This document shows, one piece after another, positions 56,374 to 61,238 of a stretch of DNA of 61,238 nucleotides (position 1 is the first letter of the stretch; the number at the start of each line of letters is the position of its first letter). The notes under the pieces are model-generated. The model worked only from the letters and a program-made list of their open reading frames with translations. It did no database searches and was not told the origin of the DNA. The position numbers and the translations under genes were made by a program. Source of the stretch: a virus (Duplodnaviria > Heunggongvirae > Uroviricota > Caudoviricetes > Ackermannviridae); IMG/VR virus record IMGVR_UViG_2974514734_000001, positions 96,683 through 157,920 of that record; one strand, written 5' to 3'.

Positions 56374-57567
56374 TTAGCTGGGGACAAACTCATTCACAGG
56401 GACATGTTGGGGCATTGATAATTCAGGACAAGCAGCTTTCATCGCTTCCTGATATGGCTTGCTACCCACGATCCAAAACAATGAGTTCTCATTAAGCAAT
56501 TCTGGTTTGTGTTCCTGTATCCATGTCATCACCTTCCCTTCATAACGAGGATGCAACTCAATATCTCCCCACTGGTAATCCATGAGGTCGTTATAACGAA
56601 CCCAATTAGTGGTATGAAGATCCCAATGGTGCACCTCAAAGCGAGGAAGCACGATATCCGGCTCGTTCTTTGGCCTGATACCACTTAGGAGGCCAGCCAG
56701 CGAAACGCTCTTAGAGGCATGCTGAAGATCCTTCTTACCATACACATAGTCTGGGTTGTCGTGATAGCGACGAGTGAAATCAGTTATGTGAGGGAGGTTT
56801 GCTTGCTTACCGATAATGCGCAAACGACTTTCAATGAAATCTAATCGGTTTGGTCCAATCCCGATCAGATAGACATTCTTCAGATTTGGTTTCGGATGCA
56901 TCGCTAAACCTGTCAGGATACTGGTGCATGAATTACAAGAACCAGCAGGAATGATCAGATCAGTGATATGGTCTGGGATATTGGCAACCTGCTCGCCACC
57001 CAGCATATGGAATCCAGCAATGCGTTCTGGTGAATGAACGGTATGATCCAATGTAATGCCATATTCCAGATAATACGCCTTTGGATTTAATTGTTCAATG
57101 AGTTTCTTACAGCGCGGCTGAATGGTGCTATTGTAACCAGATCCAACAAAGTTGAACTCACTACCAAACCATGCTGACATTGAAACCATATCATGGTTCA
57201 TGCATGTGGTTGGTTTAGTGGCACCCAGCACAGTGGTTGTCTTGCCGCCGAAATGCCGTGAGACTGCCGTCGCCATAGGGGACTGTGGACTACCAACGAC
57301 AGTACCATGGATAAGATCTGGGGATCCTCCCGCTTTAAGATGCTCCATCATGAGCCAGATGGCCTGACGGAGTTTGCTGCCATTGATCCCCTGCTTGCCA
57401 TTCATATAGCATGACAAAGGCGCGAAGTAATCTTCACGTTTGAACCAAACCTGCTGATTGGTTTCTGGATTGGCAATGAGTTCGCACGGGGTGTGTTTGT
57501 AGAGATAATCTTCCCAATGAACCAAATCGCGGTTGAGGGAAAGGGTATCGAAGATGGTTTTGTTCAT
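56374..57567 (-). CDS. PLP-dependent enzyme (fold type II), probable serinyl-DNA decarboxylase of the hypermodification pathway
   Basis: VWFKREDY, NGSKLRQ (PLP lysine), PAGSCNS, YEGK motifs. Confidence 0.8.
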   Translation of the reverse strand: MNKTIFDTLSLNRDLVHWEDYLYKHTPCELIANPETNQQVWFKREDYFAPLSCYMNGKQGINGSKLRQAIWLMMEHLKAGGSPDLIHGTVVGSPQSPMATAVSRHFGGKTTTVLGATKPTTCMNHDMVSMSAWFGSEFNFVGSGYNSTIQPRCKKLIEQLNPKAYYLEYGITLDHTVHSPERIAGFHMLGGEQVANIPDHITDLIIPAGSCNSCTSILTGLAMHPKPNLKNVYLIGIGPNRLDFIESRLRIIGKQANLPHITDFTRRYHDNPDYVYGKKDLQHASKSVSLAGLLSGIRPKNEPDIVLPRFEVHHWDLHTTNWVRYNDLMDYQWGDIELHPRYEGKVMTWIQEHKPELLNENSLFWIVGSKPYQEAMKAACPELSMPQHVPVNEFVPS

Positions 57568-57636
57568 TCTATTTCTCCTGTAGGCATTGGCTTATCATAG
57601 CGTATCTACAGGAGTATAGAAAAGGAGAATCTCGGC

Positions 57637-58338
57637 TTACTTCTTGAACAGACGAAGGAACTTCATCATGTTATCCATGAAAGTCGGCTTCTTGACCTTT
57701 TGTTTTACCGGAGCGCCCTGATCATTCAGAACACGACTGGCCGGAGGAGTAGGCGGTGTCGGGATTGAACTGTCATGTTTAACAACCGGAGCACCACTGG
57801 CCAGAGGAGTTGGCTTCAAAGATTTAATTGCCTGATTCAAATCGGAATTATCCACGACACCCACTTCTTCACCGACCGTAACGCATGGTTTGATCAGAAC
57901 GGATTTCTTAGACTGCTCATACTGATGAGCGATGTCCAGATATTTCTTGCGCTCTGAGTAGAAATCAACATTCTTTACTTTACGGCGGCGAGCAGTAGAA
58001 CTCTCTTCACCATAGAAATCATAACCATTTTTGAATAACCAATTCACGGCTTGCTCAAATGTGTTGAACACCATATACAGACCGCGTCGACCATTTACCA
58101 TGTCGTCTTCACTGGAATAACCAATGAATACCGCTTGCCCTTTCTTGTTGATATCAAAAGGAGTACACACACCAGTTTCTTCAAGTGATCGCGGAGCAAG
58201 ATGCCCGTCCCGATAGATATATGCCGGATACAAGAACTCATTAAGAGTACGTTTGTTCCCTTTGTATGTGTACAGGCGAGCAAATGGAGGCAGGTCACAA
58301 ACTACATCGTTGTAATCCCAAATCGTAACATTACGCAT
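57637..58338 (-). CDS. Hypothetical protein with Pro-rich C-terminus
   Basis: GAGG RBS; promoter upstream. Confidence 0.75.
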   Translation of the reverse strand: MRNVTIWDYNDVVCDLPPFARLYTYKGNKRTLNEFLYPAYIYRDGHLAPRSLEETGVCTPFDINKKGQAVFIGYSSEDDMVNGRRGLYMVFNTFEQAVNWLFKNGYDFYGEESSTARRRKVKNVDFYSERKKYLDIAHQYEQSKKSVLIKPCVTVGEEVGVVDNSDLNQAIKSLKPTPLASGAPVVKHDSSIPTPPTPPASRVLNDQGAPVKQKVKKPTFMDNMMKFLRLFKK

Positions 58339-58358
58339 GTTGTTTCCTCAAATCAATG

Positions 58359-58405
58359 AAGGGGTTTATAAACGGTTAAATTTTAAACCCCTTATTCTCA
58401 TTGAA
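58359..58405 (-). promoter_or_regulatory. TTCAAT-N14-TAAAAT promoter within an inverted repeat
   Basis: Minus strand: TTCAAT gagaataaggggtt TAAAAT ... aaacccctt. Confidence 0.6.
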
Positions 58406-58409
58406 CAAA

Positions 58410-58928
58410 TCAAATACTAGTCATATAGAGTGGGACAACCTGCTCAGCGATCAACACGACCTCGGTAATGGTAAAGTCACCACCATAAGAGTACAGTTTC
58501 ATTTGCGCTCCGTTGGTCGCCAGGTTCCCATCCTTGTCAACGCTGAAGAATGTAATGAAAGACAAAGTGTCCGGCGGCGGTACGCTAGCATCACGACTTC
58601 TTGATAACTGGTTCCCCACAGAACCCACAAAATCTAATATCATAGTTCTATTAGAAGTAGACCCAGACCATGATCCGACAATATTAACCTTCACAGGAAG
58701 AATAGAATCATAGGGAAACGCATGAAATTTGTGATCTGACAATTTAAAAAACGGGGCTAAACCAGTAGGAGAAGAAGGGTTTGGAGTCTTCCCATCTAAC
58801 ACGGTTAATAAATCTATTCCAGTTGCTCCAGAAGTTAGCAGTTGTGACAACCCAGAAAATCTGACTTCTGTTTTAATGCGGTGGGTCTGAAGCATATTCC
58901 CCAAATAGGGAGATGTCAAAATAGCCAT
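58410..58928 (-). CDS. Late, probably virion-associated beta-rich protein
   Basis: GGAGGGAG RBS; downstream of a late promoter. Confidence 0.7.
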   Translation of the reverse strand: MAILTSPYLGNMLQTHRIKTEVRFSGLSQLLTSGATGIDLLTVLDGKTPNPSSPTGLAPFFKLSDHKFHAFPYDSILPVKVNIVGSWSGSTSNRTMILDFVGSVGNQLSRSRDASVPPPDTLSFITFFSVDKDGNLATNGAQMKLYSYGGDFTITEVVLIAEQVVPLYMTSI

Positions 58929-58937
58929 ACTCCCTCC

Positions 58938-59171
58938 TTAAGAAACGATAACTGTCGCATCAGAATTAATTGCCTTAACCCAACCCACCGTCGGCGGGGT
59001 TAAAACGACCATATTTCCTTGATATATGATATGCGCGTTGTTACCCGTTGGAGCGCTGGGGCTATCACACAGATACACAGAACCGTGAGTCACTTGAAGA
59101 GTTTTCAAAGATGTGCCGTCTGAGACTTGCGTCCATGTACTTGCGTTTGGTGTGATCTTAGCAGTTGCCAT
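58938..59171 (-). CDS. Small late beta-rich protein
   Basis: GGAGG RBS; ATAAATAG promoter at 59197-59204. Confidence 0.75.
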   Translation of the reverse strand: MATAKITPNASTWTQVSDGTSLKTLQVTHGSVYLCDSPSAPTGNNAHIIYQGNMVVLTPPTVGWVKAINSDATVIVS

Positions 59172-59212
59172 AATAGACCTCCTTTACAAGTCAGATCTAT
59201 TTATTATAGACA

Positions 59213-59242
59213 AAAAGAAGCCCGATCTTCCTGATCGGGCTA
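59213..59242 (-). terminator. Terminator of the tRNA-cluster transcript
   Basis: Minus strand: agcccgatc-aggaa-gatcgggct-tcttttt. Confidence 0.8.
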
Positions 59243-59301
59243 TGGTTAAACCATCGTGGGGATGGAAAGACTACTCACAGCAATTTCTGGTATTAGGCGT
59301 T

Positions 59302-59456
59302 TGGGAGAGTGCGTCGGGAATCGAACCCGAAATCGTCAGGACGTTGAAAGCTATTTGCATTTCACTTGCATATCCTGCGACTTTCTTAACTTCCTTAACC
59401 CCAGATTGTTATGAAGTCGGCATGCACACCTTCTTCATCTTCAGGAAGTCACACTC
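59302..59456 (-). ncRNA. 155-nt tRNA-like RNA with canonical acceptor stem and T-arm but greatly expanded internal arms
   Basis: GAGTGTG/CGCACTC stem, TCGGG-TTCGATT-CCCGA T-arm, 3' end UCCCA. Confidence 0.7.
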
Positions 59457-59484
59457 ATAATTTGATTTGCGTTCATCGCAAATT

Positions 59485-59568
59485 TGGTGTGAGTGGATGG
59501 ATTCGAACCACCGCGCTGTTACGGGGAGATTTACAGTCTCCTGCATTCGACCGCTCTGCCACACTCAC
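59485..59568 (-). tRNA. tRNA-Tyr (GTA)
   Basis: Full cloverleaf; ggaga-ctGTAaa-tctcc; long variable arm; encoded CCA. Confidence 0.95.
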
Positions 59569-59571
59569 ATT

Positions 59572-59646
59572 TGGTCTGCCGCTGCGTGCTGGGCCACGCT
59601 CGAGGACATCGGCCATCCTTCCTCAGCTAATCCACGCAGCGGCAGA
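59572..59646 (-). ncRNA. 75-nt CCA-terminated long hairpin RNA (non-cloverleaf)
   Basis: 14-bp perfect stem TCTGCCGCTGCGTG/CACGCAGCGGCAGA followed directly by CCA. Confidence 0.6.
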
Positions 59647-59714
59647 TTTGTATCAGAGTGTCCGGTGTAGCAACCCGTGAGGTGCGCACTACTGTAGCCT
59701 CTACACTCTGAATT

Positions 59715-59820
59715 TGGTGGGCGCTACTATCGTCGTCTTCGGATTCCGTTCGGCTATTGGACAGAGGCTTGGAGCTTGTCGGTCGCGTACTTTATGCCTA
59801 TTCACTTTCGTTCACACCCA
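59715..59820 (-). ncRNA. About 106-nt CCA-terminated RNA with acceptor-like stem
   Basis: GGGTGT/GCGCCC pairing plus ACCA end; no canonical T-loop. Confidence 0.45.
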
Positions 59821-59825
59821 TTGTC

Positions 59826-59901
59826 TGGCGACGATGGCAGGACTTGAACCTGCGACATACGGTTTAACAGACCGCCGTTCTACCGACTGAACTACATCGT
59901 C
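59826..59901 (-). tRNA. tRNA-Asn (GTT)
   Basis: Cloverleaf; gcggt-ctGTTaa-accgt; TTCAAGT T-loop; CCA. Confidence 0.95.
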
Positions 59902-59910
59902 TTGCAAATC

Positions 59911-59935
59911 ACTATACCATATAAAGTTTATTGAA
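59911..59935 (-). promoter_or_regulatory. TTCAAT-N13-TATAGT promoter upstream of tRNA-Asn
   Basis: Minus strand: TTCAAT aaactttatatgg TATAGT. Confidence 0.55.
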
Positions 59936-59963
59936 CAAACATTTATTTTACAACAAACTGTAT

Positions 59964-60066
59964 TGGCGGGGTCTGAGGCTTTTCACCTCACCTGCTGGGT
60001 TTGGCCGCCCAGCCGTTCTCTATGAGGATTCACTGTCCGGACAGCTATCCATTAAACTATCGCCCC
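59964..60066 (-). ncRNA. 103-nt degenerate tRNA-like RNA ending GCCA
   Basis: 5' GGGGCGA-TA-GTTTAATGG start; gctggg/cccagc arm; tgagg-TGAAAAG-cctca T-like arm; CCCC-G-CCA end. Confidence 0.5.
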
Positions 60067-60072
60067 TTAATA

Positions 60073-60149
60073 TGGTGATCCTGATTGGGTTTGAACCAAT
60101 GACCAATGAATTATGAGTTCACTGCTCTAACCGACTGAGCTACAGGACC
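60073..60149 (-). tRNA. tRNA-CAT (Ile2-like or Met)
   Basis: Cloverleaf; gtgaa-ctCATaa-ttcat; body resembles enterobacterial tRNA-Ile2; CCA. Confidence 0.93.
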
Positions 60150-60157
60150 AAATTATT

Positions 60158-61220
60158 GTGTACCAACCAAGGACTGTCAACCCTTTATCCCGTTTGTGCA
60201 TGATCAGTTCATGCATGCCTGTTTGTGCGCCTCACGGCAACGCGCTTCTGTGGGTCTTTGGCTTGCACCGTAGCCTCACCACAGGCGTTTATTTTTCCAG
60301 GGCTTTCCACTTGCAAGTCTTGACCATACAGGGATACGGGCTTGCAAGATCGGGTTGGACACAACTTTGATGGCTCTGGTACTAAAGATCCCGCGTCACC
60401 CATAGACATGGTTTATAAAATCCAGAGCCATCAAAGTTGCAACCAAATGTTATAACTCGCAGCTTCCATACAGAAGCAACTTGTCCTCTAACGCTCGGAC
60501 CAAACGAGGCTGGCTGGTTGATTCAGAGCCGCTGGTTGCTCCAGCAAGCATGGGTTGATAGCCCGACAACATAGAATCACCCAAAGATGAAGAACACTCA
60601 GTGGTACAAGCCAGGGATACCAATTTTCAGGTCCTTTGCGAGTTCTTTAATGCTCTTCATTTTGCGAACTCGAGAATACTGCGCCTGTCTCGGGTTTCCC
60701 CTTAGTTCGGCCTCTCATTGTTCGTCCGGTCAGGGAGCTACCCTTGATGACCAGCTTATATTGAGATCTTCGCCAGCGCCCACCAGTGTCTAGAATGTGT
60801 AGGCGTCGAGGTCTGCAAGGCATTGCCCTATTTCATACAACGCTCTCTCAAGTACGCAAATCGAAGTTCTCTGGGCTTAACAGGTTCGACCCAACATGTT
60901 GAATATCGCCTAACTTACTCATGGGACGGCCACTTCTGTGTACAGACCTTGAGGGTTAAAAGATATACCCAAAGAACTTCGATTTGCGTTGTGGGGGCAA
61001 ACCCCCACACGGCTACTTCTTTGACAGGGATTGCTAGCCCTGGGGATTCCACTATTTAAGGCTTTATCCCATAACGCCCGAGGCGCGTTTTAACTTATTG
61101 AAGCTTGCATAACTGCAAACTGATGCGCTGTGAGACACATCTGGGAGGGCACTCCGTGGATTCATTTTACAGCATCCCGTATAGCGGATACCGACCTCGA
61201 TCAAGTGCCCTCTCAGATGT
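60158..61220 (-). ncRNA. ORF-poor, highly structured region: candidate large ncRNA or array of structured RNAs
   Basis: Successive long stems at 60158-60362, 60362-60439 (18 bp perfect), 60582-60664, 60854-60989 (17 bp perfect), 60990-61009 and 61137-61220 (17 bp, one mismatch). Confidence 0.55.
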
Positions 61221-61238
61221 CGGCGGGAGCTTATTAAT

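What the first reader, a model, noticed from the sequence alone, without database searches (positions are those of the whole stretch)
59302..61220. tRNA cluster interleaved with non-canonical CCA-ended RNAs: candidate phage tRNA-mimic/decoy array
Seen: only three units in this 1.9 kb are true cloverleaves (Tyr, Asn, CAT). Between them, with the same short A/T spacers and on the same strand, are units that keep tRNA processing signals (terminal stem plus CCA) but break the cloverleaf (59302-59456, 59572-59646, 59715-59820, 59964-60066), plus further closed stems upstream. The transcript ends at a strong terminator (59213-59242). Known: T4 has two stable RNAs of unknown function (species 1 and 2) in its tRNA cluster, and host defences such as PrrC, RloC and PARIS attack tRNAs. 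Inference: the phage uses host RNase P and 3' trimming to release a set of stable mimics that may decoy anticodon nucleases, synthetases or T-box-like sensors.
Basis: partly seen in the sequence, partly recalled or inferred. Interest (0 to 1): 0.88.

Follow-up and report, generated by a model that had tools for sequence, protein, structure and literature searches.

The report
Structured small RNAs among phage tRNAs
Between the three real tRNA genes of this Salmonella phage lie at least five other small, conserved, folded RNAs, with more upstream; they are the same unexplained kind as the "stable RNAs" long known from phages T4 and T5, two of them recur in hundreds of phages of three families, and nothing yet shows that they are decoys.

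Summary
The window is a Kuttervirus (Ackermannviridae) genome. On the minus strand ARAGORN and Rfam call only tRNA-Tyr, tRNA-Asn and a CAU tRNA.

- Helix covariation is strong for 59302-59456, 59575-59646 and 59651-59710.
- It is weak for 59964-60066, and for 59715-59820 it is limited to a variable hairpin.
- Upstream stems such as 60671-60847 also covary.

Modules 59651-59710 and 59575-59646 recur beside tRNAs in T5-like and N4-like phages (346 and 235 GenBank phage records, all unannotated). They are absent from 185,579 bacterial species genomes and have no Rfam family. So they are not decaying pseudo-tRNAs.

The kind is already known. The T5 RefSeq record annotates eight "stable RNAs with unknown functions" of the same anatomy in its tRNA cluster, and T4 has rnaC and rnaD. 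No homology to either was detected.

The decoy idea is untested. No unit carries an anticodon-loop mimic, which speaks against decoys of anticodon nucleases. A tmRNA-message look-alike in the same tract keeps a wider mimicry reading open. Earlier reports of this scan found the same RNAs on other phage DNA.

The parts
59213..59241 (-). Intrinsic terminator that closes the RNA cluster
   Evidence: 9-bp stem (6 G-C pairs), 5-nt loop, T run. Conserved in relatives.
59302..59456 (-). U1: 155-nt oversized tRNA-like RNA. It has an acceptor stem, a canonical T arm, a branched D-like arm, a long anticodon-like arm that ends in a 5-nt loop, and the tail UCCCA.
   Evidence: Fold -49.1 kcal/mol, z = -2.9. 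Of 38 pairs, 10 show compensatory changes and 97.7% of cells are paired, against 41-49% in slid controls. Model R3 scores 159-183 bits in three other genera or species.
59485..59568 (-). tRNA-Tyr (GTA)
59572..59646 (-). Module B: 13-14-bp closing helix, invariant core with an internal hairpin, a possible GGCC/GGCC pseudoknot, and a 3' (A)CCA.
   Evidence: z = -3.2. Across 16 sequences from three phage groups, 97.8% of cells are paired and 16 pairs change on both sides; 0 of 500 shuffles reach this. Model R1 scores 80-100 bits. Found in 235 phage records.
59651..59710 (-). It has no CCA.
   Evidence: 94.7% of cells paired; helices P1 and P2 covary. Model R2 scores 58-84 bits in Ackermannviridae, T5-like, N4-like and environmental phages. 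Found in 346 phage records.
59715..59820 (-). U3: 106-nt RNA conserved in sequence, with a 6-7-bp terminal stem, ACCA and a variable hairpin. The rest of its fold is unresolved.
   Evidence: 16 distinct homologues at 72-97% identity, all ending CCACCA. Lengths of 105-109 nt rule out coding. z = +0.65.
59826..59901 (-). tRNA-Asn (GTT)
   Evidence: 91% identical to E. coli tRNA-Asn.
59964..60066 (-). U4: 103-nt four-way cloverleaf-like RNA with a tRNA-like 5' part, an arm capped by a CCGG tetraloop, a T-arm-like hairpin and a GCCA tail.
   Evidence: 96% of cells paired, but only 3 compensatory pairs in 7 close sequences. A wastewater contig matches exactly 59964-60066 with different flanks.
60073..60149 (-). 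tRNA with a CAT anticodon, probably Ile2-type
   Evidence: Its best E. coli matches are genes annotated tRNA-Ile, at 76-80% identity.
60152..60180 (-). Sigma-70-like promoter (TTGACA, 17-nt spacer, AATAAT) just upstream of the CAT tRNA
   Evidence: 11 of 12 positions match. This is a consensus match only.
60154..60371 (-). Upstream module M5b, unusually conserved (94% identity in the Dickeya Limestonevirus)
   Evidence: (7 compensatory pairs in 18 sequences).
60333..60471 (-). Upstream module M6, a long hairpin RNA
   Evidence: 8 compensatory pairs in 12 sequences. The minus strand is favoured.
60671..60847 (-). Upstream module M8, a multi-branched RNA
   Evidence: 47 pairs, 15 of them compensatory. 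The minus strand is favoured.
60853..60989 (-). Upstream module M9, closed by a stem of about 23 bp
   Evidence: 5 sequences, 3 compensatory pairs.
61124..61238 (-). Upstream module M10. Its 5' end and the neighbouring tmRNA-like module lie beyond the window end, at the start of the genome record.

Best explanation
This stretch is most of a roughly 3-kb RNA-gene locus of a Kuttervirus phage with almost no protein genes. On the minus strand it carries three working tRNAs. Packed among them are at least five discrete non-tRNA RNA genes (U4, U3, A, B, U1), and larger structured RNAs lie upstream.

They are new families of a known kind: the "stable RNAs of unknown function" that phages T5 (RNAI, III, IV, 1, 2, 2H, 3, X) and T4 (rnaC, rnaD) encode inside their tRNA clusters.

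Shown here:
- They are conserved, folded, modular and phage-specific.
- They move between phage families as units.

Inferred:
- They are co-transcribed with the tRNAs from sigma-70-type promoters and end at the terminator at 59219-59241.
- Host tRNA-maturation enzymes cut them out. RNase P would cut at the acceptor-like terminal helices, and endonuclease or exonuclease trimming would stop at the encoded CCA.
- They accumulate as stable small RNAs whose invariant loops, not their helices, are the working surfaces. Most likely these loops bind a host or phage protein.

The target is unknown.
For: - Only three tRNAs are called.
- Covariation supports B, A, U1 and M8.
- The helices vary while the loops are invariant.
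- The modules are present in four Ackermannviridae genera, and their order is reshuffled.
- A and B occur next to tRNAs in Demerecviridae and Schitoviridae.
- Neither is found in 185,579 bacterial species genomes, and E. coli matches tRNAs only.
- There is no Rfam family for them.
- ORFs across the tract are broken in relatives.
- G-U pairs and consensus energies favour the tRNA strand.
- CCA tails are conserved.
- A promoter and a terminator are present.
- T5 and T4 records annotate stable RNAs of the same anatomy in the same genomic position.
Against: - There is no RNA-level evidence of any kind.
- U3 has no demonstrable fold beyond its terminal stem and a variable hairpin.
- Covariation in U4 is thin, with 7 close sequences.
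- Module A has no CCA, and the U1 tail is UCCCA rather than NCCA.
- The closing stem of U4 is only 4 bp, a poor RNase P substrate.
- The predicted promoter would start transcription at or inside the first tRNA.
- Structures taken from RNAalifold on the same alignments bias the slid controls.
Confidence: 0.72

Rival explanations
1. One reading: the excised RNAs mimic tRNAs and soak up anticodon nucleases (PrrC, RloC, PARIS), synthetases or tRNA sensors.
For: - U1 and U4 are tRNA-shaped, and model R3 cross-hits ordinary tRNAs at E = 1e-3 to 1e-5.
- CCA tails are conserved.
- The same tract holds a tmRNA-message look-alike with a conserved tag reading frame, so mimicry of host translation RNAs does occur in this locus.
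- One environmental copy of module A lies next to a Tad2-like anti-defence gene. This is a single lineage.
Against: - No unit has an anticodon-type stem-loop.
- A and B have no tRNA features beyond a closing helix.
- B lacks CCA in N4-like phages.
- The core of A occurs in phages without tRNAs.
- T-box sensors are not an enterobacterial device (my own knowledge).
Confidence: 0.15
2. The units are cis-acting processing or insulating elements: structured spacers that guide or protect maturation of the polycistronic tRNA transcript and have no function once released.
For: - They sit tightly between tRNAs.
- They have long closing helices.
- CCA followed by an A/U spacer recurs at the junctions.
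Against: - The invariant parts are loops, while the helices vary freely.
- The order relative to the tRNAs is not conserved.
- The core of A stands alone in tRNA-free phages.
- The analogous RNAs of T4 and T5 are annotated as stable species.
Confidence: 0.1
3. The units are decaying pseudo-tRNAs, DNA-level repeats, or small protein genes.
For: - Relatives annotate short hypothetical proteins over them.
- The 5' part of U4 looks tRNA-derived.
Against: - Compensatory changes are seen across genera and families.
- The ORFs are interrupted or shifted in relatives, and the protein is less conserved than the DNA.
- G-U pairs fit one strand only.
Confidence: 0.03

Closest known systems
Phage T5 stable RNAs (RNAI, RNAIII, RNAIV, RNA1, RNA2, RNA2H, RNA3, RNAX), as annotated in NC_005859
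   Same: - They are interleaved with tRNAs on the same strand.
- RNAI has a closing stem plus GCCA, like U4.
- RNAIII and RNAIV are closed by stems of 8-12 bp, like A and B.
- RNA1 and RNA2 are oversized tRNA-like RNAs with a canonical T arm, like U1.
- The 719-nt RNAX lies directly upstream of a tRNA, like the 60150-61238 tract.
- Their function is unknown.
   Different: No homology was detected. R1 and R2 give no hit in the T5 cluster, R3 hits only its tRNAs, and blastn finds only a tRNA fragment. In Epseptimavirus relatives of T5, module A lies just upstream of the RNA2 homologue.
Phage T4 rnaC (species 1) and rnaD (species 2)
   Same: - They are the last genes of the tRNA cluster before the end of the transcript.
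- rnaC folds into four arms with a canonical T arm, like U1.
- The sequence just past the annotated end of rnaD reads CCA (the annotated RNA ends in CC).
- Their function is unknown.
   Different: Models R1, R2 and R3 do not hit them. The sequences are unrelated.
Canonical tRNA (Rfam RF00005)
   Same: U1 keeps the acceptor stem and the T arm. U4 keeps a tRNA-like 5' part and a four-way junction.
   Different: Neither ARAGORN nor Rfam calls them at E <= 1. They have no anticodon arm and are 103-155 nt long.
Bacterial tmRNA (for the neighbouring module just beyond the window end)
   Same: A resume-codon context and a 10-codon tag frame of the type ANDxxxLxxA plus stop are conserved, with synonymous changes, in phages of six families.
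   Different: No tRNA-like domain is recognised. ARAGORN finds nothing, and Rfam hits are far below gathering scores.

Membership tests
tRNA (RF00005) | Cloverleaf with an anticodon arm, recognised by ARAGORN or the Rfam model | tested here: not met
   Only Tyr, Asn and CAT are called. No hit at E <= 1 over the five units.
tRNA (RF00005) | 7-bp acceptor stem stacked on a 5-bp T stem with a UUCGAUU-type loop | tested here: met
   Met by U1 only, with compensatory changes in both helices. Not met by A, B or U3. U4 has a T-arm-like hairpin with a non-canonical loop.
T4 rnaC / rnaD | Sequence or structure homology | tested here: not met
   R1, R2 and R3 give no hit on L040:1909-2172.
T4 rnaC / rnaD | Non-tRNA RNA at the 3' end of the tRNA cluster; four-arm fold with a T arm | tested here: met
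   The position and fold of U1 match the fold of rnaC.
T5 stable RNAs | Sequence or structure homology | tested here: not met
T5 stable RNAs | Closed-stem or tRNA-like RNAs interleaved with tRNAs on the same strand, some with encoded CCA | tested here: met
   Searches compared.
T4 / T5 stable RNAs | Accumulates as a discrete stable RNA in infected cells | not testable with these tools
   No usable RNA data were obtained.
RNase P model substrate (helix plus RCCA) | Coaxial helix of about 12 bp followed by a 3' RCCA | tested here: inconclusive
   B: 13-14 bp plus ACCA. U1: 7+5 bp, but the tail is UCCCA. U3: 6-7 bp plus ACCA. U4: 4 bp plus GCCA. A: no CCA. Cleavage itself cannot be tested here.
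Known self-cleaving ribozymes, Y RNA-like RNAs, GOLLD/ROOL | Match to the Rfam covariance model | tested here: not met
   No such hit at E <= 1 in 57000-61238 or in L011:1-1300.
tmRNA (neighbouring module) | Conserved tag reading frame after a resume codon | tested here: met
   Seven phages, with synonymous substitutions and a conserved stop codon.
tmRNA (neighbouring module) | tRNA-like domain with an alanine-accepting stem | tested here: not met
   ARAGORN finds none. Rfam scores are 14-21 bits against gathering scores of 47-84.

The most novel reading that the evidence does not exclude
The whole 3-kb tract is a portable toolkit of look-alikes of host translation RNAs: oversized tRNA-like RNAs, CCA-tailed helices and a tmRNA-message mimic. 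Homing endonucleases exchange its modules among virulent enterobacterial phages. The host's own tRNA-processing enzymes release the RNAs, which then sequester or redirect host factors such as ribosome-rescue, tRNA-repair or defence proteins.
Probability: 0.2. Interest if true: 0.85.

Novelty: new member of a known kind. Interest (0 to 1): 0.6.

Why it matters
The purpose of the non-tRNA stable RNAs in phage tRNA clusters has been open since they were found in T4 and T5.

This work gives several unannotated families with exact boundaries. Three of them (A, B, U1) have covariation-supported structures. Their invariant loops mark the likely working surfaces. Two families are shared by hundreds of phages of three families, many of them candidates for phage therapy or biocontrol.

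That makes the question directly testable by deletion, pull-down and end mapping. It also corrects many genome records in which these RNAs are unannotated or annotated as hypothetical proteins.

Tried and rejected
- **RNA evidence.** No RNA holder was listed. The two wastewater "RNA-Seq" runs are contigs and probably DNA. The two raw-read runs laid nothing. So nothing can be said about expression.
- **Weak Rfam hits rejected as chance.** mir-3119 is simply the long hairpin at 60349-60448. Plastid-ycf2 is the antisense of the CAT tRNA. The Betaproteobacteria toxic sRNA hit is the terminator hairpin.
- **Bacterial genomes.** The module A pattern gave 0 matches. The two module B pattern matches lie in GC-rich, coding-like DNA without a closing stem and get no R1 hit, so they are chance.
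- **Host mimicry by sequence.** E. coli genomes match only the tRNAs.
- **Coding reading.** The ORFs of 57-115 aa are not conserved.
- **Literature.** Six successful full-text searches found no description of these families. A paper on HDV-like theta ribozymes next to phage tRNAs (PMC10879173) prompted a ribozyme check; the helix topology does not fit and Rfam gives no hit.
- **CsrA-binding GGA reading of the module B loop.** Dropped because GGAUG is not conserved in the N4-like copies.

Full report
**What is there**

The window is the end of a 157,920-bp linear phage record. Its last base joins the first base of the same record. The DNA is 93-99% identical to Kuttervirus phages of the Ackermannviridae.

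On the minus strand, ARAGORN and Rfam call exactly three tRNAs: Tyr(GTA) 59485-59568, Asn(GTT) 59826-59901 and CAT 60073-60149. Nothing else is called at E <= 1.

The region with almost no protein genes runs from about position 810 of the genome record, back through the window end, to 59172. That is roughly 3 kb. It ends in a clear intrinsic terminator at 59219-59241.

All four are present at the stated coordinates.
- U1 (59302-59456) has a 7-bp acceptor stem, a canonical T arm, a branched D-like arm and a long anticodon-like arm.
- B (59572-59646) is a 13-14-bp helix closing a 45-nt core, followed by CCA.
- U3 (59715-59820) has a 6-7-bp stem plus ACCA.
- U4 (59964-60066) is a four-way junction closed by only 4 bp, plus GCCA.

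**Are they real?**

Each unit is found, with the same boundaries, in Taipeivirus, Limestonevirus, Agtrevirus and divergent Kuttervirus. The order of the modules differs between genera. A wastewater contig carries exactly 59964-60066 between unrelated flanks.

Covariation by unit:

| Unit | Cells paired | Pairs changed on both sides | Controls |
|---|---|---|---|
| B | 97.8% | 16 | 0/500 shuffles; slid 36-45% |
| A | 94.7% | 6 (helices P1 and P2 covary) | slid 28-46% |
| U1 | 97.7% | 10 of 38 | slid 41-49% |
| U4 | 96% | 3 | 7 close sequences only |
| U3 | not measured | 0 of 19 pairs predicted by RNAalifold | see below |

U3 has only one-sided changes in its stem and a hairpin of variable sequence. 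The rest of it is conserved but unpaired.

In A and B the helices change freely while the loops are invariant.

ORFs overlapping the tract are interrupted in relatives. The pattern of G-U pairs and the consensus energies favour the tRNA strand.

The "further closed stems upstream" are structured RNAs too. M8 (60671-60847) has 15 compensatory pairs out of 47. M6 and M5b have 8 and 7.

A near-consensus sigma-70 promoter at 60152-60180 suggests that the tRNA-proximal cluster and the upstream tract are separate transcripts. This is inference.

**Distribution**

A and B recur next to tRNA genes in T5-like Epseptimavirus and in N4-like Ithacavirus and Gamaleyavirus. Their closing stems there are completely different in sequence but still paired.

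Covariance models built from them score 58-100 bits on all of these copies. blastn finds A in 346 GenBank phage records and B in 235, annotated as nothing or as hypothetical proteins.

Neither occurs in one genome each of 185,579 bacterial and archaeal species. E. coli genomes match only the tRNAs.

The core of A also occurs in environmental phages with no tRNA gene nearby.
- In one it lies between a Tad2-like gene and a P22-type portal gene.
- In another it follows a YqaJ/RecT recombination module.
- Only the RNA of about 100 nt is shared between these two.

**Comparison with what is known**

The T5 RefSeq record annotates eight "stable RNA(s) with unknown functions" inside its tRNA cluster, three of them described there as tRNA-like or putatively tRNA-like. 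Folding them shows the same anatomy as the units here: closing stems, a GCCA tail, and oversized tRNA-like RNAs with a T arm.

T4 has rnaC and rnaD in the same position. rnaC folds into four arms with a T arm.

No homology was detected to either set.

So the kind is known, the families are new, and the function is still open. Earlier reports of this scan reached the same reading on other phage DNA. I re-derived their claims independently.

**Mechanism**

Shown: these are conserved, folded, modular, phage-specific RNA genes.

Inferred, by analogy with T4 and T5 and from the acceptor-like helices, the encoded CCA and the A/U spacers:
- They are co-transcribed with the tRNAs.
- RNase P and 3' trimming cut them out.
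- They accumulate as stable RNAs and act through their invariant loops.

The decoy idea is not excluded, but no unit carries an anticodon-type loop.

A tmRNA-message look-alike lies in the same tract, just beyond the window end. Its tag frame is conserved across six phage families. It shows that mimicry of host translation RNAs does occur in this locus, and this keeps a broader mimicry reading alive.

No RNA-level data could be obtained.

Noticed in passing
G000:C1:21-161 (L011, minus strand); its 3' hairpin reaches window 61218-61238: A tmRNA-message look-alike with a 10-codon tag frame of the type ANDNTFLAVA plus stop. The frame is conserved, with synonymous changes, in Felixounavirus, Drexlerviridae, Ithacavirus, Moazamivirus, Taipeivirus and Agtrevirus. 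No tRNA-like half is recognised. The sequence is shared by several hundred phage records.
   Followed up: partly
L011:286-352 (minus strand): A 67-nt tRNA-like element with an acceptor stem and a canonical T arm but no anticodon stem. ARAGORN does not call it here. The relative SeKF_19 annotates its homologue as tRNA-Ala.
   Followed up: no
L011:811-960 (minus strand): A 49-codon ORF with a good ribosome-binding site that encodes a hydrophobic peptide, probably membrane-bound. It lies at the upstream edge of the RNA tract, so the non-coding tract probably starts only after it.
   Followed up: no
window 59467-59483: Relatives (Mansal, SeKF_19, 3HA11, KFSST3) carry about 446 extra bases here, including tRNA-Ser and a "tRNA-OTHER". 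This phage lacks them, which points to a deletion or a module swap.
   Followed up: partly
window 60073-60149: The best E. coli matches of the CAT tRNA are genes annotated tRNA-Ile (76-80% identity). It is probably a lysidine-dependent Ile2 tRNA rather than a Met tRNA.
   Followed up: partly
window 60598-60660 (minus strand): A 20-codon ORF that begins MKSIKELAKDL and resembles the start of a helix-turn-helix protein. It has no ribosome-binding site and may be a gene remnant between RNA modules.
   Followed up: no
L015:4806-5138: In an environmental podovirus-like contig, the core of module A lies directly downstream of an 80-aa Tad2-like (PF11195, Thoeris anti-defence) ORF, between the terminase and portal genes.
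   Followed up: partly
window 60504-60584: This stretch matches Klebsiella phage vB_KpP_FBKp27 (76 kb, not an Ackermannviridae) at 83% identity. It may be another module shared across families.
   Followed up: no
GenBank OR844942.1 and MN871475.1: Records named Enterococcus phage Efm 3-10 and Pseudomonas phage Pa-sanjiao hold DNA 96-99.5% identical to this Kuttervirus tract. They are probably mislabelled or contaminated.
   Followed up: no
L003, L045, L059 and L040: HNH or GIY-YIG homing endonuclease genes lie inside or beside the tRNA and small-RNA clusters of 3HA11, Felix O1, T5 and T4. They are plausible vehicles for the module shuffling.
   Followed up: no
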